Positions 19,549-64,000 are shown, counted from the first letter of the stretch. The stretch is 64,000 bases of DNA from Patescibacteria group bacterium (GCA_041671225.1 JBAZBY010000001.1:430940-494939); one strand, 5' to 3'. Numbers and translations are program-made. The notes: generated by a model from the sequence alone, not told the origin.

Positions 19549-19558
19549 TACAAACACC

Positions 19559-20713: not shown

Positions 20714-20716
20714 GGT

Positions 20717-22054
20717 ATGACCCAACGCGGATTCGCTTTTCTTCCCATCCTTCTCATCATCGGCGGCGTTGTATTGGTCGGCATTCTTGGATTTGTGATA
20801 TGGCAACTGCCGAGCATGACCAACACCGGAAACACGAACACGGTGAATGTTGTGGTCAATGCGAATACTGTCGCCTGCACGGAAGAAGCAAAGCTCTGCC
20901 CGGACGGTTCTGCTGTTGGCCGCACCGGGCCAAACTGCGAGTTCGCTGCATGCCCGGGGGAGAATACCAATACCTCTGTTGATCTGACGGCCGATTGGGA
21001 AACATATACGAATGATACTTATGGGTATTCGATTCGATATCCAAAAGGGTGGGTATATGATGCTATGTTTCTTGAATCCGTGGTTTTTAATTCCGAATCT
21101 ACTGGTCAATGGAGGCTTTCAATCGATATGGAACCAACCGCGAGATCTGTGCAGGAAAATATTGATACTCCGATCCACAATAGCCTAGGAGAAGCCACGC
21201 ATCTTCAAGGAGATGAATGGGAAAGAAGCGCTCGCACCATCGATGGGCAACAAGCAATACGAATAGTTGTCCGTGAACTCCATCCTGGTGACTATGGGGA
21301 TACAAAAACACTGGTCGTCAATGACGGCTTCCTTTATACCTTAAGCCAAGGAACAGGTTCAGATCCTATTGAATCGGCCATGGTCGATAGTTTGAGATTT
21401 ACATCCCGCAAGACAATCGCAGATTGGAAGACATATACGAATGACGAATTCGGTTTTTCATTCAAATATCCTGCTGATTATCAACTTGAAACAGGCTCCG
21501 GCGATGTTCAACTCATTGCTCGCTCGTTCCACCCGCAAGGGCTCTTAGCCTTTGGAGTGTGGCGCGGAGAACAAGAGGACTGTGAGTGCGAGCTCATTAC
21601 GTATAATGGAAAAACCATCACCGTAGGTGATTCCCAATATAATGATTCATGGGAAACGGATTATATGTGGTCCACCTTCCAATTCACGGACGTCACGACC
21701 ACTCAAGCAACAGATGATGACTCTGTATCATTAAGTCCGGAGGATCAGCAAGCGCTGGAATCAGTCGCGTTTGCAGTGGTAGATCAAAAAACCAGTGGGC
21801 AATGGGATAAGAGAATAGATGTTGGGCGCGTAGATGCATCGCAAAATGCGGTTGTAGGGTACTGGTGGGCGCGCGACCGCTGGCAATGGATCGCTTGGAG
21901 ACAAGCAGGAGGCGATTGGAATATTCTGGTAAGTCTGGACGGATTTGATTGTACAGAATTAGAAAGTCTCCCAACGCAATATGAGAGTTTTTTCCATAAC
22001 GTCATATATATATCGTCTGGCGAAAAGTATTGCTTTTCACACACATCTCGCTAA
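20717..22054 (+). CDS. paralog 3 of 4: N-terminus MTQRGFAFLPILLIIGGVVLVGILGF, same 4-Cys module, PsbP-like repeats, 445 aa
   Basis: 5' ~110 nt and the Cys-module coding stretch are nearly identical at nucleotide level to paralog 2. Confidence 0.7.
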   Translation: MTQRGFAFLPILLIIGGVVLVGILGFVIWQLPSMTNTGNTNTVNVVVNANTVACTEEAKLCPDGSAVGRTGPNCEFAACPGENTNTSVDLTADWETYTNDTYGYSIRYPKGWVYDAMFLESVVFNSESTGQWRLSIDMEPTARSVQENIDTPIHNSLGEATHLQGDEWERSARTIDGQQAIRIVVRELHPGDYGDTKTLVVNDGFLYTLSQGTGSDPIESAMVDSLRFTSRKTIADWKTYTNDEFGFSFKYPADYQLETGSGDVQLIARSFHPQGLLAFGVWRGEQEDCECELITYNGKTITVGDSQYNDSWETDYMWSTFQFTDVTTTQATDDDSVSLSPEDQQALESVAFAVVDQKTSGQWDKRIDVGRVDASQNAVVGYWWARDRWQWIAWRQAGGDWNILVSLDGFDCTELESLPTQYESFFHNVIYISSGEKYCFSHTSR

Positions 22055-49757: not shown

Positions 49758-50179
49758 ATTAATAGGTAAACGTAGTTGTAGCGTAGCATCAAATAGTAAT
49801 GCGTCAACGGTATGCTGAATGAGTATTGTGGGATTTCAGTAATCGCTGTTCCAATAAAGAGCAGGTCGCCAAAGATCCGCAACATTAAAAAATAAAGACC
49901 CAAAAATAATCATGACAGTCTTGAAGGCGACTCCCTCTTATCCCCGCATGGTATCTGCATCTGCCGCCAAACTACTTTTTTTTCTTGGCTCTGGCTTCAA
50001 GCATGAGTTTTTTTATTGCAAGCCTTTTTGCAGTTTTGTGGGATCGAGATTTTTGTCTGTCATTCACGCCGTGATATTTTCTTTTCATGTGTTTTTCTTG
50101 AATAATGTTCTAAGGCATTCTAACGAAAAATATGGAGATATTCAAGGCTGGCTCCATCAATACTTGCAAACGTGTTTGC

Positions 50180-50254
50180 TGGGGCGACCAGAGGGTTACG
50201 ATCCCTCGTCCCCGGGACCACAACCCGGTGTTCTACCATTGAACTATGATCGCC
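50180..50254 (-). tRNA. tRNA-His (anticodon GTG) with genome-encoded G-1 and discriminator C73
   Basis: Reverse complement G-GCGATCATAGTTCAATGGTAGAACACCGGGTTGTGGTCCCGGGGACGAGGGATCGTAACCCTCTGGTCGCCCCA. Anticodon loop TTGTGGT. Extra 5' G pairs with C73. T-loop reads ATCGTAA (non-canonical). Confidence 0.8.
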
Positions 50255-50489
50255 ACGTCCAACACGGATTTCGGCCTTCGTCCCGCCGAGCGGGACTCCG
50301 CCCTCAATCACGTGTTCTCCTCTTCCCCATAAACGTGTGCTCGACCTCGCTTACGGTACTCACTCGCTACACTCATTCGTACCTACTCGGTCTGCGCACC
50401 CCGTTCATGGGGGCCCCAGGGATTAGGGGAGTTAAATGCCAAACGATTCTAGTGCAATTGTAACATGAAGTCAATGCTATACTAGAAAT

Positions 50490-51665: not shown

Positions 51666-51740
51666 TGGTGCCCCGTGAGGGAGTCGAACCCCCATTAGCG
51701 GCTTAGAAGTCCGCAGTTCTATCCGTTGAACTAACGGGGC
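51666..51740 (-). tRNA. tRNA-Arg (anticodon TCT)
   Basis: Reverse complement GCCCCGTTAGTTCAACGGATAGAACTGCGGACTTCTAAGCCGCTAATGGGGGTTCGACTCCCTCACGGGGCACCA. Loop CTTCTAA, 4-bp anticodon stem plus one mismatch. Confidence 0.8.
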
Positions 51741-51852: not shown

Positions 51853-54800
51853 ATGAGAAAGCCTAAAAAAATAAAGCGAAAGCAAAACGCAACCAGGGGG
51901 ACGCGATTCTTTTCTCTGGCGCTGGGTATCATTGTGGCGCTGGGTCTTCTTATTGTGCTTTGGCCCCAAACACTTGAGGAGCCTGAACGCCCTTTACGCA
52001 AGAGTATTCTCGGGCTCGAACAGCGCTTTCTCATCCCCGGCACGTGCACCGGATGGCATGAATCCGCGCGCGCAAAAGAGACTGATCTTCTTGGTTCTTC
52101 TGCTCGTGATGCATTTGATGATTCTAATAGTGCGTTTATCCCTGGCAAAGAGGCAGTGCTTGGTGTTGGGAATATTGAGTTAGAGGATGTGAGCACAGAA
52201 TTGCGTTGTGACAGCTTTGCTTTTCCAGAAGATATTGAACCGAATGCGTTGCTGGAAAATATATTCCTTCGTCTTTCGCTTGCCGCAGATGGAGTGCCTG
52301 ATAATGAAGATGTGCTGGCACTGTCATATAGCACAGATGACGGAGCAAGCTGGCATACGCTTGAATCCTTTCCGCTTATTGACGAGCTAAGCAATAATAT
52401 CAACGACGGTTTTTTTCGTTATGAACTGCCAGAACTGACTGATCCAAAAAATCAACTGGGGCATCTTATATTTCGGGCGGAGTATTACCCTGGATTCATT
52501 GAGCAGCACAGCCAAGCACTGATTGATGGCGTGAATATCGCCATGTCCTTTCAGACCGACCCCGAGGAGTTTGATGTAGATGCTACGCCATTAGAAGCAG
52601 TACAGATTGCGAAAGGAGATTTTCAGATGTTTGAAGATCCGGTCATACGGGTGGATATTGAAGAGCGTAGCGCGTTGAGTTTTATTGGCATTGGTGCCAC
52701 AAAACGCGAGGTGACGAACATTAAAGTCACTGATCCGGTTGGTACTATCATCCCTGACGTTGCAGTATCTGAAGTAAAAAAGGGCAAAAAGACCATTGCT
52801 GAATATCGGATTGATGAAACGCAGTTTACTCAGCCTGGGCAGTATCAGGTGCAGATTGAAATCACACAGGACGGGGAAACATACCTCATCACCCAGGATT
52901 TCACCTGGGGCGTGCTAGCGCTGAACGTGCTGAAGTCCGTTGCGCTCCCGGGCGAGACCGTGAATGCCGGCATGGCGGTGCTCACTCCCGGCGGCAATAC
53001 GCTCTGCGATGCGGAATTGGAACTGATCGTCACCAGCCCGTCTGGGACGCGCGAGACCTTCCGCACAACGGATGGCACCATAGCGCTTTCATCCGAATGC
53101 GGCCCGGAGACCGTGACCAACGTGCCGGATTATGCGGCATCATTCACCGCAATCGAGGTTGGACTACACGGCTTGGCACTCACTGCGCGCACGGAGTATG
53201 GCGAGTACACCATCACCGACGCGCTTGACGTCCGCGCGAGCGTGCCGTTTGATGTGACACGGCTCGGCCCGACGCGCATCTATCCGGAGGCGGACTATAC
53301 GATGTATATGGAAGTGGTCCCCACGCAGGATCTGCTGGGCACGGTGGAAGAATTCGTTCCGGCGGGCTTTGTCTTGAGCAACGTGTCCGATGGCGGCGAA
53401 GAGCGCGCCATCAGCGACGCGCAAAAAGCAGTACGCTGGCTGGTGGACTGGAAGGCGGGGCAATCATATACCCTTTCTTACACATTTGATGCGCCGAATG
53501 TGAGCCCGGAATTTTATTTGCTCGGCCCTGCAACATTCGGTGCGTCGTTCGTTGAAGCACGGCAATGGCAGATCGCTTCTGATGCAACGGATAACATGCT
53601 CGCTTTTTGGGCAGGCGGTGATCCGCCAGCAGGGTGGACGTGCGTGTCTTGCGGCTCCGGTGACTTTTACCAGAAGTTTCCCCGCGGCGCTGCCACTTAC
53701 GGCGGAACAGGCGGCGCAGCGACCCATAACAATCACTCCATCTCATGGGTATCTACCACTGGCACAATTACTCCTCCATTTTCAAATATTGGTGGTGCTG
53801 TAACTGTTGCAGCAAAAGTTCATACCCATCCATGGATAAGTAGTGCCAGCATGGGCAGCGGCACATTGCTGCCGGCCTATCAGAATCTGAAGGTCATTCG
53901 GTATGACACCACCGGCACCCCGGCGACCATTCCCTCTGGCGTGATTTTGATGTTTGATGCCGCTCCGACCGGATCTTGGTCGCGCTACACAGCCCAGGAC
54001 AACGATATGATTTATGGCGAGAATGACGCCACTGGTACTGGCGGGACAGCGACGCATACTCATGGCAGCGTCGGTTATACTGTGGATTCATCTACTGAGA
54101 CATCTACACCTCAATTTGGTATGGGCGGTGTTTTTGGGGCAGTAAACGGACATCAGCATACTGTTTCTGGTGCAACCACTGCTTCAGGTAATCATACACC
54201 TCCTTATTTAGGCGTGCTTCTTTATTCAGCCACTGCTGATAATACCCTGCCAAGTGACGCCATAGCCATGTGGGATGACACCCCGGCTGACACAGATTGG
54301 TCTGTGGTTTCAGGCGCTGCCCAATCCTATAATGGTAAATTTTTAATGGGCGTATCCTCATATACTGGGACTCCCGGAGGCAATTCCACCCATAATCATA
54401 GCAACCTCGGCAGTACTACCAGTGCGCCAACAGGCGGAACAGTTGAAGCGGAAGGAGGAACTAAAGGAACTGGTGCAGTTAGTACCCACACTCATACAGC
54501 CACCGTTTCTTTCGGAAATGTGAATAATCTGCCGCCGTACATTGATGTGATCATGGCAAAGTATACTGCGCCTGTTGGCATAGATATTTCAGGGCGTATT
54601 TATACCGATGAAGGATCCACCGGGCTTGATTGCGGCACGCCGCGCACGGTGCATCTCCGCATCAATGGTTCCGGAACAGACACGGTTGAGTGTTCCAATT
54701 CGCCGTCCAATGGCTCTTTTTCATTCAGTGGTGTTTTTGTTGACTCGGCGGATATTGTCACCCTCTATCTTGATAACGAGACCGAGGAGGCGACCACGGT

Positions 54801-57800
54801 TTTTGTTTCCGACGGCACTTCGCAGACCGACGTGGCGCTGTATCAAGATTTCGTCGTCGTGCGCGCGGATACCGGTTCCATCATCAATGCGAATCTTGTC
54901 ACCGGAGATGATGCAGATGATGACGTGAAGTATAACGTAGCGTCCAGCAACCTCACCGTCGATTCCGGCTTTGCTTTGCACGTCTGGACCGGAGATACCT
55001 TTGCGCCCGGAGGCACGGTGACCATGCAAGGAGCTGGCGGCAGTGTGCATATCAACACATCCGCAACGCTCAACATGGCCGGGAGCGCGCTCTCCGTCAC
55101 CGGAAGTTTTGATAACGACGGAACATACACCCCAGGAGCGAACTTAACGTACTTCGCCGCTCCTTCCGGCACCGTTACCATAAGTTCAGCAAGCGCATTC
55201 AACAATATTTCATTCAATGAAGATGGCGGGCCGGTGACCTATACGCATTCTTCAGCCCTCGACGTGAACGGGACCTTCACGCTATTGGACGGGACCTTCC
55301 AACAGGGAGCGAATGTGAACCTGAATATCGCCGGCAACATCGAATTAGCGAACGCATCGACGTTCACCAAGGCTTCCGGCACCGGACTTTTGATCCTTGA
55401 CGGGGATCTGACATTTTTTGATTGGCACGCGTCAAAACAGGATATGGGAAATGTGCACATCGGGACGTCGCCTGACACCACGGATCTTACAAGCGACATG
55501 GCCGCAACATCGCTTACGGTGAATGCCGCTGATATTTTCAACACGAACGGTTATGACCTTGATATCGGAACGGGGGGCATCACCGTTTCCGGTACGCTTG
55601 ATGCAACGGATGACGCTGAGGGGGATGATACGAGCATCAATACCGAAGGGCTGTTCGATTTGAACAGCGGCGCAACATTCACGCAGGATCAGAGTACGGT
55701 GACGTTTGACGCAACGTCCGGTACTGATGGCATCACCGATGATGCAACGCTCACATTCTACAACCTTGTGCTTAATGATGCTGGCGGTTCGCTTCAGGTC
55801 GACGCGGTGAACAGTTTTGAAGTGAGCAACAACCTCACCATTACCAACGGTACGCTGAATATTGCGAGCGGCCAGACCGTGACGCATAACGGTGCAACGC
55901 TCACGCTTTCAGATATCATCAGCGGCGCCGGCCGGCTCACGTACACGAGCGCAACGGCGTTCCCGGCCACCGGTACCATATCTTCCATATTGCGTTTTGA
56001 CGCGACCGGCGGGAACCAGACCATGAGTGCGCGAACGTATGGGGGCAACGTGGAAGTGTACAACAACAGCGCGAGCACGCGCACAGTGACGGCAGCAGCA
56101 GGGACAGAAACGCTGAGCGCGAATCTGGATCTTTCCACAGGCAACGCCGCGGTGACGCTTGATCTGAATGCGAACAACCCGACATTCGATGTGGCCGGGA
56201 ATGTGACCATCGGCGCGAGCACAACGCTCATTGCGACGACGAGCGCATTCACCGTGGCTGGAAACTGGGACAACAACGGCACCTTCACGCATTCCAGCGG
56301 CACGGTCACCATGGATGCTGCGGATACGGACAACACGATCGAGTGCGGAGCATCTTCGTTCAATGCGCTGACGCTGGCCGGAAGCGACAGCAGCGGCACG
56401 TGGACCGCGCAAACGGACAATTGCACCGTGGCCGGAACATTGAATGTGGATACCAGTGACGTCCTGACCATCACCACTGTTACCGTGACGCATTCAGGCG
56501 CAACGCTCACGCTCAACGGAACGATTTCCGGCACGGGCCGTCTGACGTATTTGAGCGCGACCAACTTTCCTACCTCTGGGACCATCTCGTCCATCCTGCG
56601 TTATGATATGACTGCTACAGCCCAGAATGTCACCAACCGGACGTATGGCGGCTTGGTGGAGATCTATGCGAACACCGCGTCAACACGTTCAGCAACGGCA
56701 CTCGCCGGCACCACTGTGATGACCGGCGGACTGACGCTTTCCACGGGCAATGCCGCAGTCACCTTTGACCAGACGACAAGCGACCCGACGCTCACGGTAA
56801 CAGGAACCGTGACCATCGGTACAGGAACGACCTTCAGCGCCAGCAACAGCGCCACAACATCTTTTGCCGACAGCTATATCAACAATGGAACATTTACTGC
56901 CAACAGCGGAATAATCACCTTCACGGCAACGGATGCAGGCAATACACTTTCTGGCACGCTCAACGGGTCATCCGCTTTTTATAAAGTTAGATTCAACGGC
57001 ACGGGCGGCGAATGGACCACGCAGGACCCCATGCTCATCTCCGCAGCCAATGACGCTGCTACGCTTCAACTATATGCCGGAACCGTGACGGTCGGAAATG
57101 GTAATGGCGATAATTTCGAGGTGGACGGCAGAGTTGTCATTGCCGGGAACGTCGGTGAAACGGCAACACTGCAGACTGCCGCACTTGCTGAAGGCAGCTC
57201 ACTCATTTTTGACATGAATGCCAACACATCCACACCAACGTGCGCAAACTGTTATGTGCAGGTTGGGGTAGGCGGCGGTGCTGGTACCGGAATATTCAAA
57301 GTACAGAAGAATACTATTCTGCGCCTCAACCCGCGCTCCGCAGCAACAGCATCAGATACCGGTGTCCAAGTGCAGACCACCGGAAATTTTCAAGTCGTCG
57401 GTTCACTTGATGATTCTGGTACGTCAGATAGCACGACCAACGAAACGACGCTTACCGATACCACGAAGGCCTGGACGACCGACGCGCACATCGGAAAGAA
57501 GATGCGCATTTCTAATACGAGTTCCCTTGCCTACGGCCGCGTGTATCCCATTACCGCCAACACTGCGACCGCGCTCACATACACCACCACGGCGTCGGCC
57601 AGCTCCACCATCGCGTCCATCACCAACACCGGCGCCAACCCCACGCGCATCATCTGTTCCGCGTCGAACGCCTTGATCACGGCGGACGACGCAGGTATCG
57701 GACGATATCTCCACGATACAACCGGTACAGCAGGCTATTTCCAGATCGTTGACTCCACGAACAATAATGCGTCATGTTCTTCCAATGACTCATTTGTCAT

Positions 57801-60522
57801 CGTGGCCATCCCGACTGCCTTCACGGCTTTGGCAGTAAGCGACGCCATTCAGGTATCCGACGGTCTCCAGCAAGGTGACCAGTATGAGATTCTCGATTAT
57901 GCGTACGTCACTGCGGAGAACGGAACGGCATGCAATGCGGCAGTGAACGAAGCAGGAGAGGCATATATCTATGGGAATGCTGCCTCACAACTTACCATTC
58001 AGTACGCTGATGTGTGCAATCTCGGAAGGAATGCCGGTGGATACCGCGGTCTTGAAGCGTCGGGCATTGATGGTTCAGTGGCAAATGCGGGCATTCTCAT
58101 TGACCGTTCTGAACTTCACGGAAATGCCTGGAATTATTTTGGCGTTAGTCCGAACAATAATAGCACCTACGGATATGGGGTGTATCGCAACCTCATCTAT
58201 AGCAATGCAACACATGCCATGCGTCCGGGCGGGAATGGCATGGAGATCAATGGCAACCGCATCTATAGCAACACGGGGTATGGCGTGTATGGCGCCAATG
58301 CCACGACGTTAGTGATCAGCAATAATCATATCTACCTGAATAGCAGTGATGGTATTGAGATCGAGGGAGCGGGCGCGACTGTTTCCGGGAACACCACCTA
58401 CAAGAATACCGGGTCAGGCATCTATTTTGTCACCTCTGATAATTGTTCCGGCACATCGAATGCTACATTCAGCAATACGGTCCACGGTATTTATGACAAT
58501 TCTGCGTCATACAACAACACCTATACGGGGAACAGTGTTTATTATAACGATTCGTATGGGTTGCGTATCAATAGCACAACGAATACGACCGCAACCTCGA
58601 ACGCGATCTATGCGAATAAAAGTTACGGGCTTGTTACCTCGAACACGGTAAAAAATATTGTCGCTCGCTCAAATACGATTTATTATAATACATTGATTGA
58701 TGTTCTTGTAGGCAAAACAACATATAGTATTTTTGAAAATAACACGATTTACAACATTGGCTCTCCAACGGCTACGTATGGGATTTACATAAGTAATACG
58801 CCGAATTCAAACAATGTTTTCATCGGAAACGCTATTTACAATCAACGTTATGCGATTCAAACAAGCGATAATGCTGCTGTGACGAATACCGTTTTCATCA
58901 ATGAGCAATATGGCGTTTCCGGGAATAACGCTTTCTGGGATATCAATAGTGGCGGATATGCTGACCAGTTATATTTTTACAATTCAACTTTTGGCTCAAC
59001 AACAGAAAACAATGCATTGACTCCGGCGAACGCATTCTATATATCGCGGAAGCACGACGGAGTAGCTGGAGCGACAAAGGTCTGGGGCGAGTACGCGGTG
59101 CAGGCCGACAACACGGAAACGCCGCAGAACGAGGCGACGGATCAGTTCAACTACGCCAACGACCTCTGGCCGGATTCCTTCACGCCGCACGGGTTTTCAG
59201 TTGGGTATGGCGCAGGCAGCGAGGACACCGACCTTGACTATGCAGTAAGCGGAACATTCGGCGGTGATGCGAGCGCATATTCATACCGGGTAGTTTGTAC
59301 TGCGGCCAATTGTGTTTCAACCGGAAGCTCGTGGGACGTGTACCGCAACGGAACATTGCTTACCGCCAAGGCATCAACCGGCTCTCTCTATACAGATGCG
59401 CAGGTTGACGGCAGCACGGCACCCAGCATCCAATTCAAAATTGATGACGCAGGCACGGATTACACTGCTGGCGCTATGTACACGTTCGTTGCGTGGAAAG
59501 CGAGCGGAGATACCAGCACGCAGAAGGCCATCACTATGGCGCAGGATGGGGACAAGTTCACCGTTGCTTCCGGCAGAACGCTTGAACTCAAAGGGAATAC
59601 TGGCGGCGCAAACCCAACGCTCATCACGCGCGGCGCCACCGGCGGATATCAGTTCAGCGTGAGTGGCGCGATCGACGCAGACGGATATTCATTTAACTAC
59701 CTCGGCGGGGCTAGCCAGGCGAGCGGTTTGGATATCAACTCCGGTGCAACGGTCACCAGTCTTGATAACGGATATTTCGATAATTTTGGCACGAACGTGG
59801 GAAGTGCTGATTCATTCATCGATATCGATTCGTCGCTCATCGGCAGCGGCACCCCAACGCGCTCGCTGTATAAGGTATCGTTCGATAACACCACTGGATA
59901 TGCGAACTGCAACATCAATGCGACCGGCGCAGACGCTGCGGGGTATTGGGAGTTTTTGAACAGCACAGGGGCTTTCACCGGGGAAAGCTATGACTGCAAT
60001 GACGCTGCGGCAGATGGTACGCCCGGGCAGATAAGCTGGGGTGATCCATCCATCACACTCAGCATCTCAGATACCGCGATCGGCTTCGGGTCGCTTTCCG
60101 ATGCCGCGGCGCGATATGCGACGGATGATGAAGCCGGTTCAGACAGCGAGGTTGAGGCCCATACCGTCACCGCCAGCACGAACAGTGATAACGGGTATAG
60201 CATCACGGTACAAGGAAGTACACTCACCAGCGGCGGCGATACCATCAGCGCGATCGGTCCAGTAAATACGGCATCAGATCCCGGGACAGAGCAATTCGGC
60301 CTGCGCATGACGGCATCCGGCGGGTCAGGAGCGGTGAGCGCACCATACGCCGCGTCAGGTTTTGCACTGGACACCGCTGCGTTCCCGGACGAGGTCGTAT
60401 CAAGCTCCACTGCAGATAGCGGCACCACGTATTCCGCGCGGTATCTTGCGAATATTTCCGGCCCCACGGAAGCGGGGATATACAATGCCATACTCACTTA
60501 TATTGTGGTTGGTTCTTTCTGA
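51853..60522 (+). CDS. giant (2889 aa) cell-surface protein: N-terminal TM, tail-collar-like module, ~65-aa TLxGxISGxGRLTY repeats, long PbH1 parallel beta-helix region, C-terminal WxL-like domain
   Basis: Collar-like PAGWTCVSCGSGDFYQKFPRGAATYGGTGG almost identical to giant gene 1. Beta-helix repeats NRIYSNTGYGVYGANATTLVISNNHIYLNSSDGIEIEGAGATVSGNTTYKNTGSGIYF... C-terminal 165 aa homologous to the two downstream 357-aa proteins. Confidence 0.85.
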   Translation: MRKPKKIKRKQNATRGTRFFSLALGIIVALGLLIVLWPQTLEEPERPLRKSILGLEQRFLIPGTCTGWHESARAKETDLLGSSARDAFDDSNSAFIPGKEAVLGVGNIELEDVSTELRCDSFAFPEDIEPNALLENIFLRLSLAADGVPDNEDVLALSYSTDDGASWHTLESFPLIDELSNNINDGFFRYELPELTDPKNQLGHLIFRAEYYPGFIEQHSQALIDGVNIAMSFQTDPEEFDVDATPLEAVQIAKGDFQMFEDPVIRVDIEERSALSFIGIGATKREVTNIKVTDPVGTIIPDVAVSEVKKGKKTIAEYRIDETQFTQPGQYQVQIEITQDGETYLITQDFTWGVLALNVLKSVALPGETVNAGMAVLTPGGNTLCDAELELIVTSPSGTRETFRTTDGTIALSSECGPETVTNVPDYAASFTAIEVGLHGLALTARTEYGEYTITDALDVRASVPFDVTRLGPTRIYPEADYTMYMEVVPTQDLLGTVEEFVPAGFVLSNVSDGGEERAISDAQKAVRWLVDWKAGQSYTLSYTFDAPNVSPEFYLLGPATFGASFVEARQWQIASDATDNMLAFWAGGDPPAGWTCVSCGSGDFYQKFPRGAATYGGTGGAATHNNHSISWVSTTGTITPPFSNIGGAVTVAAKVHTHPWISSASMGSGTLLPAYQNLKVIRYDTTGTPATIPSGVILMFDAAPTGSWSRYTAQDNDMIYGENDATGTGGTATHTHGSVGYTVDSSTETSTPQFGMGGVFGAVNGHQHTVSGATTASGNHTPPYLGVLLYSATADNTLPSDAIAMWDDTPADTDWSVVSGAAQSYNGKFLMGVSSYTGTPGGNSTHNHSNLGSTTSAPTGGTVEAEGGTKGTGAVSTHTHTATVSFGNVNNLPPYIDVIMAKYTAPVGIDISGRIYTDEGSTGLDCGTPRTVHLRINGSGTDTVECSNSPSNGSFSFSGVFVDSADIVTLYLDNETEEATTVFVSDGTSQTDVALYQDFVVVRADTGSIINANLVTGDDADDDVKYNVASSNLTVDSGFALHVWTGDTFAPGGTVTMQGAGGSVHINTSATLNMAGSALSVTGSFDNDGTYTPGANLTYFAAPSGTVTISSASAFNNISFNEDGGPVTYTHSSALDVNGTFTLLDGTFQQGANVNLNIAGNIELANASTFTKASGTGLLILDGDLTFFDWHASKQDMGNVHIGTSPDTTDLTSDMAATSLTVNAADIFNTNGYDLDIGTGGITVSGTLDATDDAEGDDTSINTEGLFDLNSGATFTQDQSTVTFDATSGTDGITDDATLTFYNLVLNDAGGSLQVDAVNSFEVSNNLTITNGTLNIASGQTVTHNGATLTLSDIISGAGRLTYTSATAFPATGTISSILRFDATGGNQTMSARTYGGNVEVYNNSASTRTVTAAAGTETLSANLDLSTGNAAVTLDLNANNPTFDVAGNVTIGASTTLIATTSAFTVAGNWDNNGTFTHSSGTVTMDAADTDNTIECGASSFNALTLAGSDSSGTWTAQTDNCTVAGTLNVDTSDVLTITTVTVTHSGATLTLNGTISGTGRLTYLSATNFPTSGTISSILRYDMTATAQNVTNRTYGGLVEIYANTASTRSATALAGTTVMTGGLTLSTGNAAVTFDQTTSDPTLTVTGTVTIGTGTTFSASNSATTSFADSYINNGTFTANSGIITFTATDAGNTLSGTLNGSSAFYKVRFNGTGGEWTTQDPMLISAANDAATLQLYAGTVTVGNGNGDNFEVDGRVVIAGNVGETATLQTAALAEGSSLIFDMNANTSTPTCANCYVQVGVGGGAGTGIFKVQKNTILRLNPRSAATASDTGVQVQTTGNFQVVGSLDDSGTSDSTTNETTLTDTTKAWTTDAHIGKKMRISNTSSLAYGRVYPITANTATALTYTTTASASSTIASITNTGANPTRIICSASNALITADDAGIGRYLHDTTGTAGYFQIVDSTNNNASCSSNDSFVIVAIPTAFTALAVSDAIQVSDGLQQGDQYEILDYAYVTAENGTACNAAVNEAGEAYIYGNAASQLTIQYADVCNLGRNAGGYRGLEASGIDGSVANAGILIDRSELHGNAWNYFGVSPNNNSTYGYGVYRNLIYSNATHAMRPGGNGMEINGNRIYSNTGYGVYGANATTLVISNNHIYLNSSDGIEIEGAGATVSGNTTYKNTGSGIYFVTSDNCSGTSNATFSNTVHGIYDNSASYNNTYTGNSVYYNDSYGLRINSTTNTTATSNAIYANKSYGLVTSNTVKNIVARSNTIYYNTLIDVLVGKTTYSIFENNTIYNIGSPTATYGIYISNTPNSNNVFIGNAIYNQRYAIQTSDNAAVTNTVFINEQYGVSGNNAFWDINSGGYADQLYFYNSTFGSTTENNALTPANAFYISRKHDGVAGATKVWGEYAVQADNTETPQNEATDQFNYANDLWPDSFTPHGFSVGYGAGSEDTDLDYAVSGTFGGDASAYSYRVVCTAANCVSTGSSWDVYRNGTLLTAKASTGSLYTDAQVDGSTAPSIQFKIDDAGTDYTAGAMYTFVAWKASGDTSTQKAITMAQDGDKFTVASGRTLELKGNTGGANPTLITRGATGGYQFSVSGAIDADGYSFNYLGGASQASGLDINSGATVTSLDNGYFDNFGTNVGSADSFIDIDSSLIGSGTPTRSLYKVSFDNTTGYANCNINATGADAAGYWEFLNSTGAFTGESYDCNDAAADGTPGQISWGDPSITLSISDTAIGFGSLSDAAARYATDDEAGSDSEVEAHTVTASTNSDNGYSITVQGSTLTSGGDTISAIGPVNTASDPGTEQFGLRMTASGGSGAVSAPYAASGFALDTAAFPDEVVSSSTADSGTTYSARYLANISGPTEAGIYNAILTYIVVGSF

Positions 60523-60643
60523 TTTCTTGACCCAAAGAGCTTTCCGTGGTATACTGTTTTTGTTGAAGCTCATCAGAGGGGGAATTTTCCGCCTTGAATT
60601 TTCAGCAAAAAAAGATAGAATTCATTCGTTAAGAGAAGCAGAT

Positions 60644-61717
60644 ATGCAGAAGCGACTTCTCATCAGCGGTCTTATCCTCGCGTTCGTCACAGCGCTTACT
60701 TTGCCGTTGCCGCAAACAGCGCATGCGGCCAACCTCACATCACTCTCTGACACGCTCTCCACGCTCACGCAGAATGTTGCGGCGAACCACACCATCCTCT
60801 TCGTCACCCCCACCGGCGTCCAAGCGACCGCTGATACCATCACCATCGACCTTACGGACTTCACCGTCGGTACCGTTGACTACACGGATATCGATCTTGC
60901 AGAAGATAACGATGGCGCGTGCGACGGCACATGGACGGACAAGACGCTTGCCGCTGTTGCAGGCGCTGGAGAATGGGGCGCAGCATTCGCTGCTGCCGTC
61001 CTTACCCTCACCCCGCCGACCGATGCCGCATCCGGTGAGATCGATGCCGGATACTGCGTACAAGTGGAGATCGGCACCAATGCCGCAAGCGGCAATGCGC
61101 AGCTTACCAGCCCGAACGACACCAACACGCATGTCATCGAGCTTGCAGGCAACTTTGGCGATGACGGAAAGTATGCCGTAGACTTTGTTGCGGATGATAG
61201 CGTGGCGGTGAGCGCCACTGTCGACCCGACGATGACTTTTGCCATCTCCGACACGGATATCGGCTTTGGAACGCTTTCTGCGAGCGCAGCCACGTGGGCG
61301 ACCGACGATGCGGCGGGTTCGGCCACGGATGTCGCAGCGCACACCCTTGCCCTCTCCACCAATGCGACCGATGGCTATGCCATCACGTATAACGGCGCAA
61401 CGCTGACATCGGGAAGCGATACTATTTCTGTTGCGACCATTTCCAATAATGCAGACGGCACGCCAACGACAGAAGAGTTTGCCATGGGCTTTTCCACTGA
61501 CGGCGATGCGACCATTGCCGCGGCATATGACCATAATGCGACGCCGGGAAGCCGCGACTGGGCATTCGTGGCAAGCACCACGACGACCATTGCCTCAGAG
61601 CTCGGCCCAACCGCAACAGAGACCATCAGCGCGTTCTATCTTGCAAACATTGCCGCGGTAACGGAAGCGGGCATCTATACGACCAGCGTCACATACATTG
61701 CGACGGCCACATTTTAA
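60644..61717 (+). CDS. 357-aa secreted protein with C-terminal WxL-like domain (paralog A)
   Basis: Track ORF trimmed to MQKRLLISGLILAFVTALTLPLPQTAHA signal peptide. C-terminus ...DTDIGFGTLS...DGYAITYNGATLTSGSDTIS...EAGIYTTSVTYIATATF. Confidence 0.75.
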   Translation: MQKRLLISGLILAFVTALTLPLPQTAHAANLTSLSDTLSTLTQNVAANHTILFVTPTGVQATADTITIDLTDFTVGTVDYTDIDLAEDNDGACDGTWTDKTLAAVAGAGEWGAAFAAAVLTLTPPTDAASGEIDAGYCVQVEIGTNAASGNAQLTSPNDTNTHVIELAGNFGDDGKYAVDFVADDSVAVSATVDPTMTFAISDTDIGFGTLSASAATWATDDAAGSATDVAAHTLALSTNATDGYAITYNGATLTSGSDTISVATISNNADGTPTTEEFAMGFSTDGDATIAAAYDHNATPGSRDWAFVASTTTTIASELGPTATETISAFYLANIAAVTEAGIYTTSVTYIATATF

Positions 61718-61723
61718 AGGGTC

Positions 61724-62797
61724 TTGTACATGGGAAAATATCGCATCATCTCTCTTATCCTCATCATGACATTGGGGTTTGGTTTATCGTGGGCGCCTGT
61801 CCGTGCGGTAAGCCTCACATCACTCTCTGACACGCTCTCCACGCTCACGCAGAATGTTGCGGCGAACCACACCATCCTCTTCGTCACCCCCACCGGCGTC
61901 CAAGCGACCGCTGATACCATCACCATCGACCTTACGGACTTCACCGTCGGTACCGTTGACTACACGGATATCGATCTTGCAGAAGATAACGATGGCGCGT
62001 GCGACGGCACATGGACGGACAAGACGCTTGCCGCTGTTGCAGGCGCTGGAGAATGGGGCGCAGCATTCGCTGCTGCCGTCCTTACCCTCACCCCGCCGAC
62101 CGATGCCGCATCCGGTGAGATCGATGCCGGATACTGCGTACAAGTGGAGATCGGCACCAATGCCGCAAGCGGCAATGCGCAGCTTACCAGCCCGAACGAC
62201 ACCAACACGCATGTCATCGAGCTTGCAGGCAACTTTGGCGATGACGGAAAGTATGCCGTAGACTTTGTTGCGGATGATAGTGTTGATGTCACCGGAACCG
62301 TGGACGCAACAATGACGTTTGCCATCAGCGATGTTGATGTCGGTTTTGGCACGCTTGATGCGAGCAATCCCCGTTGGGCGAATGCCGGCGGCACAGGCTC
62401 AGCCACAGATACGGCCGCGCATACCTTGAGCCTTGCGACGAATGCGACCGATGGCTATGCCATCACCTATAATGGTGCAACACTCACCAGCGGAGCAGAT
62501 ACGATTACGGTTGCTTCTATTTCTAATGATGCAGACGGTACACAAGGATCGGAACAGTTCGCCATGGGCTTTTCCACGGACGGCGATGCGACCATTGCCG
62601 CGGCATATGACCATAATGCGACGCCGGGAAGCCGCGACTGGGCATTCGTGGCAAGCACCACAACGACCCTTGCCTCAGAGCTCGGCCCAACCGCAACAGA
62701 GACCATCAGCGCGTTCTACCTTGCAAACATTGCCGGAAATACAGAAGCAGGGATCTATTCCACCAGCGTCACGTATATTGCGACGGCCACGTTCTAA
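61724..62797 (+). CDS. 357-aa secreted protein with C-terminal WxL-like domain (paralog B)
   Basis: Signal peptide MGKYRIISLILIMTLGFGLSWAPVRA. Residues ~28-190 encoded by DNA 100% identical to paralog A (61800..62283 = 60722..61205). Confidence 0.75.
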   Translation: MYMGKYRIISLILIMTLGFGLSWAPVRAVSLTSLSDTLSTLTQNVAANHTILFVTPTGVQATADTITIDLTDFTVGTVDYTDIDLAEDNDGACDGTWTDKTLAAVAGAGEWGAAFAAAVLTLTPPTDAASGEIDAGYCVQVEIGTNAASGNAQLTSPNDTNTHVIELAGNFGDDGKYAVDFVADDSVDVTGTVDATMTFAISDVDVGFGTLDASNPRWANAGGTGSATDTAAHTLSLATNATDGYAITYNGATLTSGADTITVASISNDADGTQGSEQFAMGFSTDGDATIAAAYDHNATPGSRDWAFVASTTTTLASELGPTATETISAFYLANIAGNTEAGIYSTSVTYIATATF

Positions 62798-62887
62798 GGT
62801 GGGAAAACCGCCATTTCTTTTTTCTGGGATTTCAGTATACTTACTATAGATTATTAACGTTTCATAGTGAAAAAGGGGGATTTCTTT

Positions 62888-63937
62888 ATGCAGAAGCTTG
62901 CTATGGCACTCATCGTGCTCGGCATATTTTTTGTTTTTGGGTTGGAGAAGGCGCAGGCCTTGACCATCATCCCCCCATCAACGGAGTTTCAGGTGGATCC
63001 TGGTGAGACATATGAAACGACCATCAAGCTCTTCAATGAGACGCAGAGCGATCTCACGCTCTATACGGATGTTCGGAATTTTACGCAGCTCGGAGAAACC
63101 GGAACGCCGAATTTTGATTTTGATGCGGAGCTCGCCGGCCTTGCCTCATATATCACGGTAACGCCCGGGCCCATTCCCGTAGGTGCTGGCGAGCGCGTGG
63201 AAGTTGCGGTGAAGATCGCTTTCCCATTGGATGCTGAACCCGGCGGAGCCTACGCTTCTGTATTTTTTACCGAGACCCCCCCAGTACCCACAGCACCTGG
63301 CCAGGTCGCGATTTCTTCAAAGCTTGGCAGTCTTTTGATCGTTCGCGTTAGCGGGGATATTCTTGAAATGGGCGCGGTTTCTGATTTTGGTACTGAGGTC
63401 TGTAATAGTGAGACCAAAACCTGCGCGGAGCATGGCGGAACGTATAACCGTCTTCCGATAGAGTTTTTTATGCGGTATACCAATACAGGCAATGTTCATT
63501 TGCGCCCGAGCGGCACTATTGCAATAAAGAACATACTTGGCGGTACCACTGCGACGCTAGAAATGAATGACGCAGACGGTGCAACGCTTCCAGACAGTAC
63601 GCGCAAATATACTGCTGTGTGGGAGAAAGAAAGAGTGAATGCAGATGAAGGCAATATATGGACGGATTTTTGGCAGGAATTCGGCAATGAATGGCGCAAC
63701 TTCGGCCTTGGCCGTTATACCGCAATGGTTACCGTTACCGCTGGCGAGGATACCATCATTACTGATACCGGCACTCTTACGCTGTGGATTTGGCCATGGC
63801 GCGTGCTTGTTATCTCCTTACTCGTCTTGGTTGCCCTCGTTCTCATTATCTTCTTTGGCATCAAGCGCTATAACGCGCACATCCTGAAGAAAGCCGCGGA
63901 ACAGCAGGGTCAATCTAAGCCGTCGAGCAAGGTGTAG
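62888..63937 (+). CDS. DUF916-like surface protein with C-terminal TM anchor and basic tail (CscA-like)
   Basis: ATG 62888 preceded by AAGGGGGA (track start 62867 is GTG). Signal peptide, beta-sandwich-like LTIIPPSTEFQVDPGETYETTIKLFNETQSDLTLYTDVRNF, C-terminal WRVLVISLLVLVALVLIIFFGIKRYNAH. Confidence 0.65.
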   Translation: MQKLAMALIVLGIFFVFGLEKAQALTIIPPSTEFQVDPGETYETTIKLFNETQSDLTLYTDVRNFTQLGETGTPNFDFDAELAGLASYITVTPGPIPVGAGERVEVAVKIAFPLDAEPGGAYASVFFTETPPVPTAPGQVAISSKLGSLLIVRVSGDILEMGAVSDFGTEVCNSETKTCAEHGGTYNRLPIEFFMRYTNTGNVHLRPSGTIAIKNILGGTTATLEMNDADGATLPDSTRKYTAVWEKERVNADEGNIWTDFWQEFGNEWRNFGLGRYTAMVTVTAGEDTIITDTGTLTLWIWPWRVLVISLLVLVALVLIIFFGIKRYNAHILKKAAEQQGQSKPSSKV

Positions 63938-63955: not shown

Positions 63956-64000
63956 ATGTTTTTTCGCTCGCTTACACTCCTCACGCTCGCGATTCTGGGA
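63956..64000 (+). CDS. start of another secreted-protein gene (MFFRSLTLLTLAILG...), cut by window end
   Basis: ATG preceded by GGAGGT. Hydrophobic signal-like N-terminus. Only 15 codons visible. Confidence 0.4.
   Translation, partial: MFFRSLTLLTLAILG

What the first reader, a model, noticed from the sequence alone, without database searches (positions are those of the whole stretch)
51853..63937. csc-like cell-surface complex locus: a 2889-aa beta-helix protein and two 357-aa paralogs share a WxL-like C-terminal domain, followed by a DUF916-like membrane-anchored protein
Three consecutive genes end in a homologous ~165-aa domain: ISDTAIGFGSLS...GYSITVQGSTLTSGGDTIS...EAGIYNAILTYIVVGSF and DTDIGFGTLS...GYAITYNGATLTSGSDTIS...EAGIYTTSVTYIATATF. 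Its strand pattern (an FDFG-like strand, a G(W/Y)-x-(I/V)-T strand, and a terminal aG-Y...T(W/Y)-x-(L/I) strand) recalls the WxL peptidoglycan-binding domain of Lactobacillales, with Tyr replacing the name-giving Trp. The fourth gene has a signal peptide, a beta-sandwich-like N-domain and a C-terminal TM helix with basic tail, which is the architecture of CscA (DUF916 + DUF3324). Csc/WxL clusters are described only in low-GC Gram-positives. Here a divergent version is attached to a giant parallel-beta-helix adhesin in a genome that otherwise looks CPR-like. This may be an undescribed non-covalent surface-display/adhesion system.
Basis: partly seen in the sequence, partly recalled or inferred. 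Interest (0 to 1): 0.72.

Follow-up and report, generated by a model that had tools for sequence, protein, structure and literature searches.

The report
CPR Pam-type pilus operon, WxLIP-like chaperone
This is an operon for a recently described pilus of ultra-small CPR bacteria (giant tip adhesin, two pilins, membrane-anchored chaperone), and its chaperone is a true relative of the CscA/WxLIP protein of lactic acid bacteria, linking two surface systems that had been described separately.

Summary
There are four co-directional genes: G1 (2889 aa), G2 and G3 (357 aa each) and G4 (349-356 aa). G1-G3 end in a shared ~160-aa domain (G1 vs G2 44% identity, E 1e-25).

That domain is not a Pfam WxL domain. 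It passes the curated cut-off of NCBIfam NF058581, 'Pam pilus system pilin subunit', a CPR-specific donor-strand-exchange pilus solved by cryo-EM in a 2026 preprint.

G4 folds as two Ig-like domains plus a C-terminal membrane helix. Its best solved-structure matches are E. faecium WxLIP (DUF916+DUF3324), then chaperone-usher chaperones. Its family aligns with Firmicutes WxLIPs over the full length (hhalign 98.7%, E 3.6e-16).

Across 79 CPR genomes the order is large tip protein, pilin(s), chaperone (76/79), usually followed by an Ig+dockerin protein and cohesin-like membrane proteins. A donor-strand motif (VxV[ST]ATV) sits before the C-domain in 91/94 pilins and in 0/33 large proteins. It recurs at the mature N-terminus of the dockerin protein.

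Verdict: a Pam-type pilus operon with a giant beta-helix tip adhesin and probable dockerin/cohesin anchoring. WxL membership, novelty of the system and the non-polymeric mechanism are not supported.

The parts
51853..60522 (+). G1, 2889-aa predicted tip adhesin. It has an N-terminal basic region plus a hydrophobic segment (signal or signal-anchor), beta-sandwich and His/Gly-rich segments, a long beta-helix-like repeat region, and a C-terminal Pam pilin C-domain.
   Evidence: ORF and translation. Pfam Beta_helix/NosD at aa 2077-2365. C-terminal domain matches NF058581 at 80.9 bits (cut-off 55) and the PamT C-half at 44 bits. Large proteins ending in this domain sit directly upstream of pilins in 28 of 79 related loci.
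60043..60519 (+). G1 C-terminal Pam-type domain (aa ~2731-2889). It is an acceptor domain with no donor-strand motif in front of it.
   Evidence: CTD HMM match. BLASTP to G2 gives 44% identity, E 1e-25. The motif is absent in 33/33 large CTD proteins, including G1.
60644..61717 (+). G2, pilin (357 aa): signal peptide, beta-sandwich N-domain (aa ~32-180), unstructured linker (aa 182-196), C-domain (aa 197-357).
   Evidence: NF058581 at 64.6 bits, above the cut-off of 55. AF2 model pLDDT 93.7. 507 relatives in the first search and 2634 cluster representatives in the exhaustive one.
61202..61222 (+). Candidate donor strand of G2, VAVSATV, in the inter-domain linker.
   Evidence: It lies in the coil between the two domains of the monomer model. 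The motif is present in 91/94 NTD-bearing pilins of related loci.
61724..62797 (+). G3, second pilin (357 aa from TTG, 355 from the ATG at 61730). It is 86% identical to G2 and its donor strand reads VDVTGTV (62282-62302).
   Evidence: NF058581 at 71.1 bits. BLASTP to G2. A 468-nt tract is identical to G2, while the linker and first half of the C-domain diverge.
62888..63937 (+). G4, membrane-anchored PapD-like chaperone and homologue of WxLIP/CscA (349 aa from the ATG; an alternative GTG start lies at 62867).
   Evidence: AF2 pLDDT 93.5 with two beta-sandwiches and a C-terminal helix at aa 304-341. Foldseek finds WxLIP 9i1y/9i25 at E 7e-10 and CsuC, CfaA and Caf1M at ~1e-8 to 3e-7. Profile vs PDB finds EfmWxLIP1 at 7e-7. 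hhalign vs WxLIPs gives 98.7%. The gene sits directly downstream of pilins in 76/79 loci.
63797..63910 (+). C-terminal helix of G4: a transmembrane segment followed by a basic tail.
   Evidence: AF2/DSSP helix 304-341. Sequence WRVLVISLLVLVALVLIIFFGIKRYNAHILKK. This region aligns with the TM helix of the WxLIPs.
63956..64000 (+). Start of G5 (282 aa, runs off the window): signal peptide, N-terminal donor-like strand INITAIV, Pro-rich linker, two Ig-like domains, type I dockerin. Predicted terminator and anchor adaptor (PamR-like role).
   Evidence: The full gene was read on the identical public contig (L001 1817-2665). Pfam Dockerin_1 at 33.3 bits, above GA 22.9. A homologue sits directly after the chaperone in about 60 loci. 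The N-terminal motif is conserved.
60527..60555 (+). Promoter-like site between G1 and G2 (weak evidence).
   Evidence: 10/12 match with TG. The number of such sites in the region is not above shuffles.
62798..62812 (+). Terminator-like hairpin immediately after the G3 stop codon (weak evidence). It could attenuate read-through after the pilin genes.
   Evidence: The number of such sites is not above shuffles.

Best explanation
The locus is an operon for a Pam-type pilus. This is the CPR-specific, usher-less relative of chaperone-usher pili, in which subunits are joined by donor-strand exchange. The steps below are inferred unless marked as shown; what is shown is family membership, folds, synteny and motif distribution.

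1. All products are exported by Sec.
2. G4 stays in the membrane through its C-terminal helix. It caps the open groove of each newly exported C-domain with a strand of its own. The likely candidate is the conserved alternating stretch GQVAISSKLGSLLIVRV that follows a variable loop.
3. G1 is the first, distal subunit. It has an acceptor C-domain but no donor strand, so it can only sit at the tip, where it presents a ~2700-aa beta-helix-rich adhesin.
4. G2 and G3 are the shaft subunits. Each inserts its inter-domain linker strand (VAVSATV or VDVTGTV) into the C-domain groove of the previous subunit and offers its own groove to the next.
5. G5, just beyond the window, has only a donor strand (INITAIV) at its mature N-terminus. 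A flexible linker, two Ig-like domains and a dockerin follow. It ends growth and probably fastens the fibre to the cohesin-like membrane proteins G6 and G7.

The chaperone is homologous to WxLIP/CscA of Firmicutes.
For: Family membership:
- G1's C-domain, G2 and G3 pass the NF058581 cut-off (80.9, 64.6 and 71.1 bits vs 55).
- Cryo-EM of homologous PamA/PamB filaments shows an N-domain, a linker donor strand and a truncated Ig C-domain. The same operon has PapD-like chaperones with a C-terminal TM helix, a tip subunit without a linker, and an anchor with an N-terminal strand (preprint 10.64898/2026.03.03.709456).

Pilin:
- The G2 model has exactly this two-domain layout with a coil linker.

Chaperone:
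- The G4 model is two Ig-like domains plus a TM helix. It matches WxLIP and the CsuC, CfaA, Caf1M, EcpB, DraB and CupB2 chaperones.
- Homology to WxLIP is shown.

Synteny in 79 GTDB genomes:
- A chaperone gene follows the pilin(s) in 76/79 loci; the three exceptions are contig ends.
- A large protein ending in the C-domain lies upstream in 28 loci.
- A G5-like gene follows the chaperone in about 60 loci, and G6/G7-like genes occur in 62-63 loci.

Donor-strand motif:
- It is present in 91/94 pilins, 0/33 large proteins and 2/29 other small C-domain proteins.
- It recurs at the mature N-terminus of the G5 family, followed by Pro- or Gly-rich linkers.
- G1's C-domain scores better against the PamT tip model (44 bits) than G2 and G3 do (18-20 bits).

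Anchor:
- G5's dockerin scores above the Pfam cut-off, and G6 is cohesin-like. L014 homologues carry Cohesin hits.
Against: - No filament has been seen for this organism, and polymerisation is inferred from homology.
- No complex prediction could be run. Strand insertion, the identity of the chaperone's donated strand and the dockerin-cohesin pairing are all untested.
- G1 has no obvious signal-peptidase site. If its N-terminal segment is an uncleaved anchor, it cannot be a free distal tip.
- G1's C-domain does not reach the PamT equivalog cut-off (44 vs 240 bits).
- G4 matches no NCBIfam model. It could not be aligned directly with M. amalyticus PamC/PamD, whose sequences I could not fetch.
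- G5 has a dockerin where the published PamR has a TM helix.
- G6 scores below the Pfam Cohesin cut-off (21.7 vs 24.1 bits).
Confidence: 0.8

Rival explanations
1. The locus encodes a Csc/WxL-type non-covalent surface complex. The C-terminal domains are WxL-like wall-binding modules held on the cell surface by a CscA/WxLIP-like membrane protein, and nothing polymerises into a fibre.
For: G4 is a true WxLIP homologue. The gene content parallels WxL clusters: a large protein and small proteins share a C-terminal domain (PMC10599100). The C-domain and WxL profiles align end to end with their three motif strands in register. The score is weak but beats 200/200 column shuffles.
Against: - There is no Pfam WxL hit in G1-G3 or in 71 homologues, and no sequence hit to the solved WxL chain.
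- Profile-profile P is only 0.008-0.023.
- 9i25_A is not among the top structural matches.
- The domain belongs to a family whose members were seen by cryo-EM as filaments.
- The strict split of the donor-strand motif between pilins, tips and terminators has no role in a static complex.
- No LPXTG protein is present.
- This model may not truly be a rival, because WxL clusters themselves may work by strand donation.
Confidence: 0.1
2. The pilus machinery is as described, but G1 is not the distal tip. It stays anchored in the membrane by its uncleaved N-terminal hydrophobic segment. It would then be a cell-proximal giant adhesin that merely docks a short pilin chain, or it would nucleate fibres that remain looped to the cell.
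For: The G1 N-terminus (basic stretch, then a ~19-aa hydrophobic segment, then LWPQT) has no clear A-x-A cleavage site. Other large C-domain proteins start the same way.
Against: An acceptor-only subunit is by construction the first one incorporated, and growth at the base pushes it outwards. The published model places the linker-less subunit at the tip. Signal-peptide cleavage was not predicted with a dedicated tool, so this remains open.
Confidence: 0.07
3. The shared domain is an ordinary Ig-like or S-layer-type module with no dedicated partner, and the gene order is coincidental.
Against: The partner gene is conserved in 76/79 loci, and the downstream genes in about 60. A curated family model matches. 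The donor-strand motif is conserved in the pilins and the G5 family and absent from the large proteins.
Confidence: 0.02

Closest known systems
Pam pilus of Candidatus Mycosynbacter amalyticus (Saccharimonadia); Troman et al., bioRxiv 10.64898/2026.03.03.709456; NCBIfam NF058581 and NF058579
   Same: The pilin C-terminal domain family is the same (above cut-off). The pilins have two domains with a linker strand. The PapD-like chaperone has a C-terminal TM helix. A tip subunit lacks the donor strand. A terminator has an N-terminal strand. No usher is present. The system is restricted to CPR.
   Different: - The tip is a 2889-aa beta-helix adhesin fused to the C-domain, not a ~240-aa PamT.
- There are two near-identical pilins rather than the dissimilar PamA and PamB.
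- Only one chaperone gene is seen.
- The terminator carries a dockerin and is followed by cohesin-like membrane proteins, where PamR has its own TM helix.
- Protein-hit names point to Paceibacteria/Parcubacteria-type organisms. The preprint reports mainly Saccharimonadia and Microgenomatia.
- No ATP synthase genes were seen next to the locus, but only the immediate flanks were annotated.
Csc / WxL clusters of Lactobacillales and Bacillales (CscA = WxLIP, DUF916+DUF3324+TM; CscB and CscC = small and large WxL proteins; CscD = small LPXTG protein); Siezen 2006, Hassan & Williamson 2023 (PMC10599100); PDB 9i1y, 9i25
   Same: G4 is homologous to WxLIP over its whole length, TM helix included. The cluster has the same logic: a large protein with variable N-terminal binding domains and small proteins all end in one ~165-aa beta-domain. 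AlphaFold2 predicts that WxLIP completes the WxL sandwich with one of its own strands (the solved complex 9i25 was not inspected here). That is the chaperone step proposed for this locus.
   Different: - The C-domain does not match Pfam WxL.
- Tyr replaces the Trp of both W-x-L motifs.
- There is no LPXTG/sortase anchor.
- WxL clusters have been interpreted as static peptidoglycan-bound platforms, with the TM helix proposed to enter host membranes, not as fibres.
- The phylum and cell envelope are different.
Classical and archaic chaperone-usher pili (Pap/Fim, Csu, CFA/I, Caf1)
   Same: The chaperone has a two-Ig-domain fold (Foldseek E 1e-8 to 3e-6). Subunits have an incomplete Ig fold. The proposed polarity is a two-domain tip adhesin (binding part plus pilin domain), then shaft subunits, then a terminator.
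   Different: There is no outer membrane and no usher. The chaperone is membrane-tethered. The donor strand is an internal linker between two domains rather than an N-terminal extension, although minimal ~215-aa CPR pilins do carry it at the N-terminus. There is no detectable sequence similarity.
Cohesin-dockerin anchoring (cellulosome-type)
   Same: G5 ends in a type I dockerin that scores above the Pfam cut-off. G6 and G7 start with cohesin-like modules and end in TM helices.
   Different: Here the pair would anchor a pilus rather than enzymes. The interaction is inferred only from adjacency and conservation.

Membership tests
Pam pilus system (CPR) | Pilin C-terminal domain matches NCBIfam NF058581 above its curated cut-off (55 bits) | tested here: met
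   G1 C-domain 80.9 bits, G2 64.6, G3 71.1
Pam pilus system (CPR) | [quoted passage not shown] | tested here: met
   AF2 model of G2, pLDDT 93.7: N-domain aa 32-180, coil linker 182-196, C-domain 197-357. Whether the C-domain lacks a strand was not measured.
Pam pilus system (CPR) | PapD/FimC-like chaperone with a C-terminal transmembrane helix, encoded in the operon | tested here: met
   G4 model and Foldseek hits to CsuC, CfaA, Caf1M, EcpB and DraB. Adjacent to pilins in 76/79 loci. A direct comparison with PamC/PamD sequences was not possible.
Pam pilus system (CPR) | Tip subunit PamT (NF058579 equivalog, cut-off 240 bits): C-domain without linker strand | tested here: not met
   G1's C-domain scores 44 bits, matching only the C-terminal half of the model. 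G1 is therefore not a PamT orthologue. It does share the functional hallmark, a C-domain with no donor motif.
Pam pilus system (CPR) | Anchor PamR: N-terminal donor strand, tandem FnIII/Ig domains, C-terminal TM helix | tested here: inconclusive
   G5 has the N-terminal strand motif and two Ig-like domains but ends in a dockerin, not a TM helix. Its fold was not predicted.
Pam pilus system (CPR) | Subunits polymerise into helical filaments by donor-strand exchange | not testable with these tools
   Needs complex prediction, biochemistry or cryo-EM. The motif distribution is indirect support.
Pam pilus system (CPR) | Restricted to CPR/Patescibacteria | tested here: met
   Named relatives are Patescibacteria. 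The 79 GTDB loci carry CPR titles, except about 9 third-party bins titled Gammaproteobacteria or Pseudomonadales, which were not checked.
Csc / WxL cluster | WxLIP/CscA protein: DUF916 (PF06030) + DUF3324 (PF11797) + TM helix | tested here: inconclusive
   Homology is clear: hhalign 98.7%, E 3.6e-16 over 309 columns; PDB profile hit to EfmWxLIP1 at 7e-7; top Foldseek hits. But G4 itself hits neither Pfam model. Only 28/86 relatives hit PF06030, and PF11797 was not among the families listed for the 86 relatives. G4 is a member of the superfamily, not of the Pfam families as delimited.
Csc / WxL cluster | At least two proteins with a WxL domain (PF13731) carrying the two Trp-x-Leu motifs | tested here: not met
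   No PF13731 hit at E<=1 in G1-G3 or in 71 homologues. The profile has no PDB hit, although the WxL chain 9i25_A is in the PDB copy. hhalign P is 0.008-0.023. Tyr occupies both Trp positions.
Csc / WxL cluster | Small LPXTG-anchored protein (CscD) in the cluster | tested here: not met
   No LPXTG protein is present in the locus. G5 ends in a dockerin.
Csc / WxL cluster | Non-covalent binding of the C-terminal domain to peptidoglycan | not testable with these tools
   Biochemical property.
Chaperone-usher pili | Outer-membrane usher encoded in the operon | tested here: not met
   No usher-like gene lies among G1-G7 or the immediate flanks.
Chaperone-usher pili | Periplasmic PapD-like chaperone fold | tested here: met
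   Foldseek E 1e-8 to 3e-6 to CsuC, CfaA, Caf1M, EcpB, DraB and CupB2. Here the chaperone is membrane-tethered.

The most novel reading that the evidence does not exclude
Pam pili of CPR bacteria and the Csc/WxL clusters of Firmicutes are two branches of one ancient, usher-less surface-assembly system of bacteria without an outer membrane. In this reading WxLIP/CscA is a membrane-anchored chaperone. The large WxL proteins are tip adhesins. The small WxL proteins and the small LPXTG protein carry N-terminal donor strands: their mature N-termini read ASIKF, ASIRF, GSIGF, ADITF, GNIEF or ANIKV and are followed by Pro-rich linkers. WxL clusters would then build short donor-strand-linked assemblies anchored to the wall by sortase. 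In CPR the same logic yields long pili with giant tip adhesins, anchored through dockerin-cohesin pairs. The chaperone homology is shown here. The C-domain to WxL homology and strand exchange in Firmicutes are not shown. Neither paper read here (WxLIP 2023, Pam 2026) mentions the other system. No paper in the searched library links WxL with donor-strand exchange or chaperone-usher assembly.
Probability: 0.4. Interest if true: 0.8.

Novelty: new variant of a known kind. Interest (0 to 1): 0.6.

Why it matters
CPR bacteria are thought to live attached to host cells, yet few attachment structures are known at the molecular level. This locus shows that the newly described Pam pilus is widespread: 2634 cluster representatives match the pilin profile. 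It occurs in lineages whose hits carry Paceibacteria/Parcubacteria-type names, beyond the Saccharimonadia and Microgenomatia where the preprint found it most prevalent.

It is also modular. The first gene is a hypervariable protein of 0.5 to more than 3.3 thousand residues fused to the pilin C-domain, a natural candidate for the host-specificity determinant. The split of a simple donor-strand motif between tip, shaft and terminator gives a sequence-only rule for assigning roles in thousands of unannotated CPR genes.

Independently, the clear homology between the CPR chaperone and WxLIP/CscA suggests a new reading of Csc/WxL clusters. These have been linked to virulence and adhesion in Enterococcus, Listeria and lactobacilli. 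They may be chaperone-assisted strand-exchange assemblies, which is directly testable.

Tried and rejected
- Pfam on G1-G4 gave no WxL, DUF916 or DUF3324 hit on the window proteins themselves.
- PDB sequence searches with single proteins returned only noise: a carbonic anhydrase at E 8e-5 with low-complexity character, and NADH dehydrogenases at E ~0.8.
- The profile of the pilin family had no PDB sequence hit at E<=10. Either the Pam pilin structures are not in the copy or they are too divergent.
- hhalign of the C-domain against WxL scored 22 (P 0.008). It beat 200 column shuffles (maximum 20.2) and the reversed profile (13.7). However, two CPR subfamilies that clearly belong together by context scored the same (22.2, P 0.011). 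The method is therefore insensitive for these Thr/Ser/Ala-rich beta-domains, and the result decides nothing.
- Reciprocal HMM searches between the C-domain and WxL found nothing at E<0.01.
- The search for related loci with the chaperone alignment failed for lack of a conserved stretch.
- NCBIfam has no model that matches the G4 family.
- A plain phmmer search with an E. mundtii long-WxL domain missed 9i25_A. A 12-sequence profile found it.
- Promoter and terminator scans were not above shuffles.
- The S-layer or ordinary Ig-domain explanation was rejected on synteny.


Full report
**What is there**

The region holds four co-directional genes.
- G1: 51853-60522, 2889 aa.
- G2: 60644-61717, 357 aa.
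- G3: 61724-62797, 357 aa from TTG, 355 from the ATG at 61730.
- G4: 62867 or 62888 to 63937, 356 or 349 aa.

G2 and G3 are 86% identical. The last ~160 residues of G1 align with the C-terminal part of G2 at 44% identity, E 1e-25.

The locus continues beyond the window. A 100%-identical copy of G4 lies on a 120-kb public contig from a Patescibacteria MAG. There it is followed by three more genes.
- G5 (282 aa): signal peptide, two Ig-like domains, type I dockerin.
- G6 (372 aa): cohesin-like N-domain, C-terminal TM helix.
- G7 (424 aa): similar N-terminal pattern, Big_13, TM helix.

G5 starts at window position 63956.

**Which family**

Pfam finds only a right-handed beta-helix in G1 (aa 2077-2365). 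It finds nothing significant in G2-G4: no WxL, DUF916 or DUF3324.

NCBIfam places all three C-terminal domains in NF058581, 'Pam pilus system pilin subunit', above the curated cut-off of 55 bits. G1's C-domain scores 80.9, G2 64.6 and G3 71.1. There are also weaker matches to the tip protein model PamT.

The family comes from a 2026 preprint (10.64898/2026.03.03.709456). Cryo-EM of filaments from the CPR bacterium Ca. Mycosynbacter amalyticus identified two pilins. Each has a beta-sandwich N-domain, a single linker strand and a truncated Ig-like C-domain that accepts the neighbour's linker strand. The operon also encodes PapD/FimC-like chaperones with a C-terminal TM helix, a linker-less tip subunit (PamT) and an anchor with an N-terminal strand (PamR).

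The AF2 model of G2 (pLDDT 93.7) has this layout: N-domain 32-180, coil 182-196, C-domain 197-357.

**The fourth gene**

The AF2 model of G4 (pLDDT 93.5) shows a signal helix, two beta-sandwich domains and a long C-terminal helix.

Against solved structures, the two best Foldseek matches are 'WxLIP from Enterococcus faecium' (9i1y, 9i25; E 7e-10 and 1e-9). Chaperone-usher chaperones (CsuC, CfaA, Caf1M, EcpB, DraB, CupB2) follow closely, interleaved with unrelated multi-Ig proteins.

Sequence evidence agrees.
- 28 of 86 G4 relatives hit Pfam PF06030 (DUF916/WxLIP_PGBD), best E 1.9e-8.
- The family profile's only significant PDB hits are EfmWxLIP1 (E 7e-7).
- I fetched eight WxL clusters from Firmicutes plasmids. 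hhalign of the G4 family against their WxLIPs gives 98.7% probability, E 3.6e-16, over 309 columns from signal peptide to TM helix.
- HMM searches hit in both directions.

In addition, WxLIP, the Pam-type chaperones and PapD-like chaperones share a fold. The Pam preprint does not mention WxL or DUF916. The WxLIP paper (PMC10599100) predicts that a WxLIP strand completes the WxL sandwich, but it does not call this chaperone-type strand donation. No paper in the library connects WxL with donor-strand exchange.

**Is the C-domain a WxL domain?**

It cannot be shown to be one.
- No PF13731 hit appears in G1-G3 or in 71 homologues.
- The pilin profile has no PDB sequence hit, although a WxL chain (9i25_A) is present in the PDB copy.
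- Reciprocal HMMs find nothing.

Profile-profile alignment is weak: score 22, P 0.008-0.023. It exceeds 200 of 200 column shuffles. Two CPR subfamilies that certainly belong together score no better, so the test lacks power.

I treat C-domain to WxL homology as plausible but unproven. The plausibility rests on the homologous partner protein, the same domain size, the same C-terminal position and the same cluster logic.

**Conservation and roles**

The pilin profile finds 2634 cluster representatives at E<=1e-3 in the exhaustive search.

In 79 GTDB species genomes carrying a G2 relative, a G4-family gene lies directly downstream of the pilin gene(s) in 76. The three exceptions are contig ends. 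In 28 loci, the gene upstream of the pilins is a large protein (800 to more than 3298 aa) that ends in the C-domain. A G5-like Ig+dockerin gene follows the chaperone in about 60 loci, and G6/G7 relatives occur in 62-63.

A seven-residue motif, [VIL]x[VILMF][STA][AGS]x[VI] (VAVSATV in G2, VDVTGTV in G3), lies immediately before the C-domain. Its distribution is sharply split.

| Protein class | Motif present |
|---|---|
| N-domain-bearing pilins | 91 of 94 |
| Large C-domain proteins | 0 of 33 |
| Other small C-domain proteins | 2 of 29 |

The same motif opens the mature N-terminus of the G5 family (INITAIV in G5; VSVSAIV, VTVTATV and ISISATV elsewhere). A Pro- or Gly-rich linker follows it.

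This three-way split is what a donor-strand-exchange fibre requires: acceptor only, donor plus acceptor, donor only. It assigns G1 to the tip, G2 and G3 to the shaft and G5 to the terminator.

G1's C-domain is also closer to PamT than those of G2 and G3 are. Small PamT-like proteins take the place of the giant in other loci.

**Mechanism (inferred)**

Export is through Sec. G4, tethered to the membrane, caps each C-domain groove. Its conserved alternating strand after a variable loop, GQVAISSKLGSLLIVRV, is the candidate.

G1 is incorporated first and is pushed outwards as G2 and G3 add at the base by strand exchange. G5 ends growth. Its dockerin probably binds the cohesin-like, membrane-anchored G6 and G7.

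None of these contacts could be modelled here. It is also undecided whether G1's N-terminal hydrophobic segment is cleaved.

**Comparison and novelty**

The locus is a member of the Pam pilus kind. It is a distinct variant in three respects: a giant beta-helix tip adhesin fused to the pilin C-domain, twin pilins, and dockerin/cohesin anchoring where PamR has a TM helix. Protein-hit names also point to Paceibacteria/Parcubacteria-type lineages.

It fails membership of the Csc/WxL family as defined: no WxL domain, no LPXTG protein, and a different phylum. Its chaperone is nevertheless homologous to CscA/WxLIP.

The most novel reading not excluded is that WxL clusters and Pam pili are one ancient usher-less strand-exchange system. 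In the eight Firmicutes clusters, the small WxL proteins and the small LPXTG proteins begin, after the signal peptide, with a short beta-strand-like motif followed by a Pro-rich linker. That is what an N-terminal donor strand would look like. This rests on few sequences and on no structural test.

Noticed in passing
window 60733-61200 and 61813-62280: G2 and G3 share a perfectly identical 468-nt tract covering the N-domain. The signal peptide, the linker and the first half of the C-domain are only 62-78% identical at the DNA level. This suggests gene conversion of the N-domain, or diversification of the donor strand and groove. An assembly artefact is not excluded.
   Followed up: partly
window 60527-60555 and 62798-62812: A promoter-like site (10/12, TG-extended) lies between G1 and G2. 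A GC-rich hairpin plus T-run lies immediately after the G3 stop codon. Together they would give high pilin and lower chaperone expression, as in other pilus operons. The counts of such sites are not above shuffles.
   Followed up: no
window 50183-50253 (-) and ORF 49912-50463 (+): A tRNA gene lies inside, and opposite to, a 183-aa ORF with no family match, so that ORF is probably not a gene. Another tRNA (51669-51740, -) sits just upstream of G1.
   Followed up: no
window 6139-12831 (+): A second giant surface protein (2230 aa) has fn3 and Pur_ac_phosph_N-like domains and a C-terminal LysM peptidoglycan-binding domain. It represents a different anchoring solution in the same genome.
   Followed up: no
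window 18430-22054 (+): Three tandem paralogues (372, 401 and 445 aa) have PsbP_2-like domains.
   Followed up: no
L001 5054-6773 (- strand; about 4.2-5.9 kb beyond the window end): A type IV pilin-like protein (N-terminal methylation motif) and a XerC/D-like integrase lie right after the pilus operon on the opposite strand.
   Followed up: no
L012 8624-9988, L016 9319-9981, L017 9253-9927: These are minimal ~215-aa pilins: signal peptide, N-terminal donor-like strand (e.g. VVVTLTV), then a C-domain-like fold with no N-domain. They sit next to G4-family chaperones, yet both NF058581 and my C-domain HMM miss them. The Pam family is therefore wider than current models detect.
   Followed up: partly
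L002-L009 (Firmicutes WxL clusters): The mature N-termini of small WxL proteins and of the small LPXTG proteins carry a short alternating beta-strand-like motif (ASIKF, ASIRF, GSIGF, ADITF, GNIEF, ANIKV) followed by a Pro-rich linker. This resembles an N-terminal donor strand.
   Followed up: partly
P0386 (3077 aa); L013 11110-14964: Some large CPR proteins contain the pilin N-domain as a module. P0386 matches the pilin profile in nine stretches, the best in the N-domain region. A 1284-aa protein downstream of a chaperone has one copy at its N-terminus.
   Followed up: no
L021, L024, L026, L052, L067, L068, L072, L090, L092: These GTDB bins carry the pilin but are titled 'uncultured Gammaproteobacteria' or 'Pseudomonadales'. 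They are probably mislabelled third-party bins, since the loci have the CPR operon structure. Their taxonomy was not checked.
   Followed up: no
window 56500-58000 (within G1): G1 appears to contain an internal duplication of roughly 200 aa. Two consecutive segments begin TVTHNGATLTLSDIISGAGRLTY and VTVTHSGATLTLNGTISGTGRLTY. This was seen by eye in the translation and not analysed; the nucleotide coordinates are approximate.
   Followed up: no
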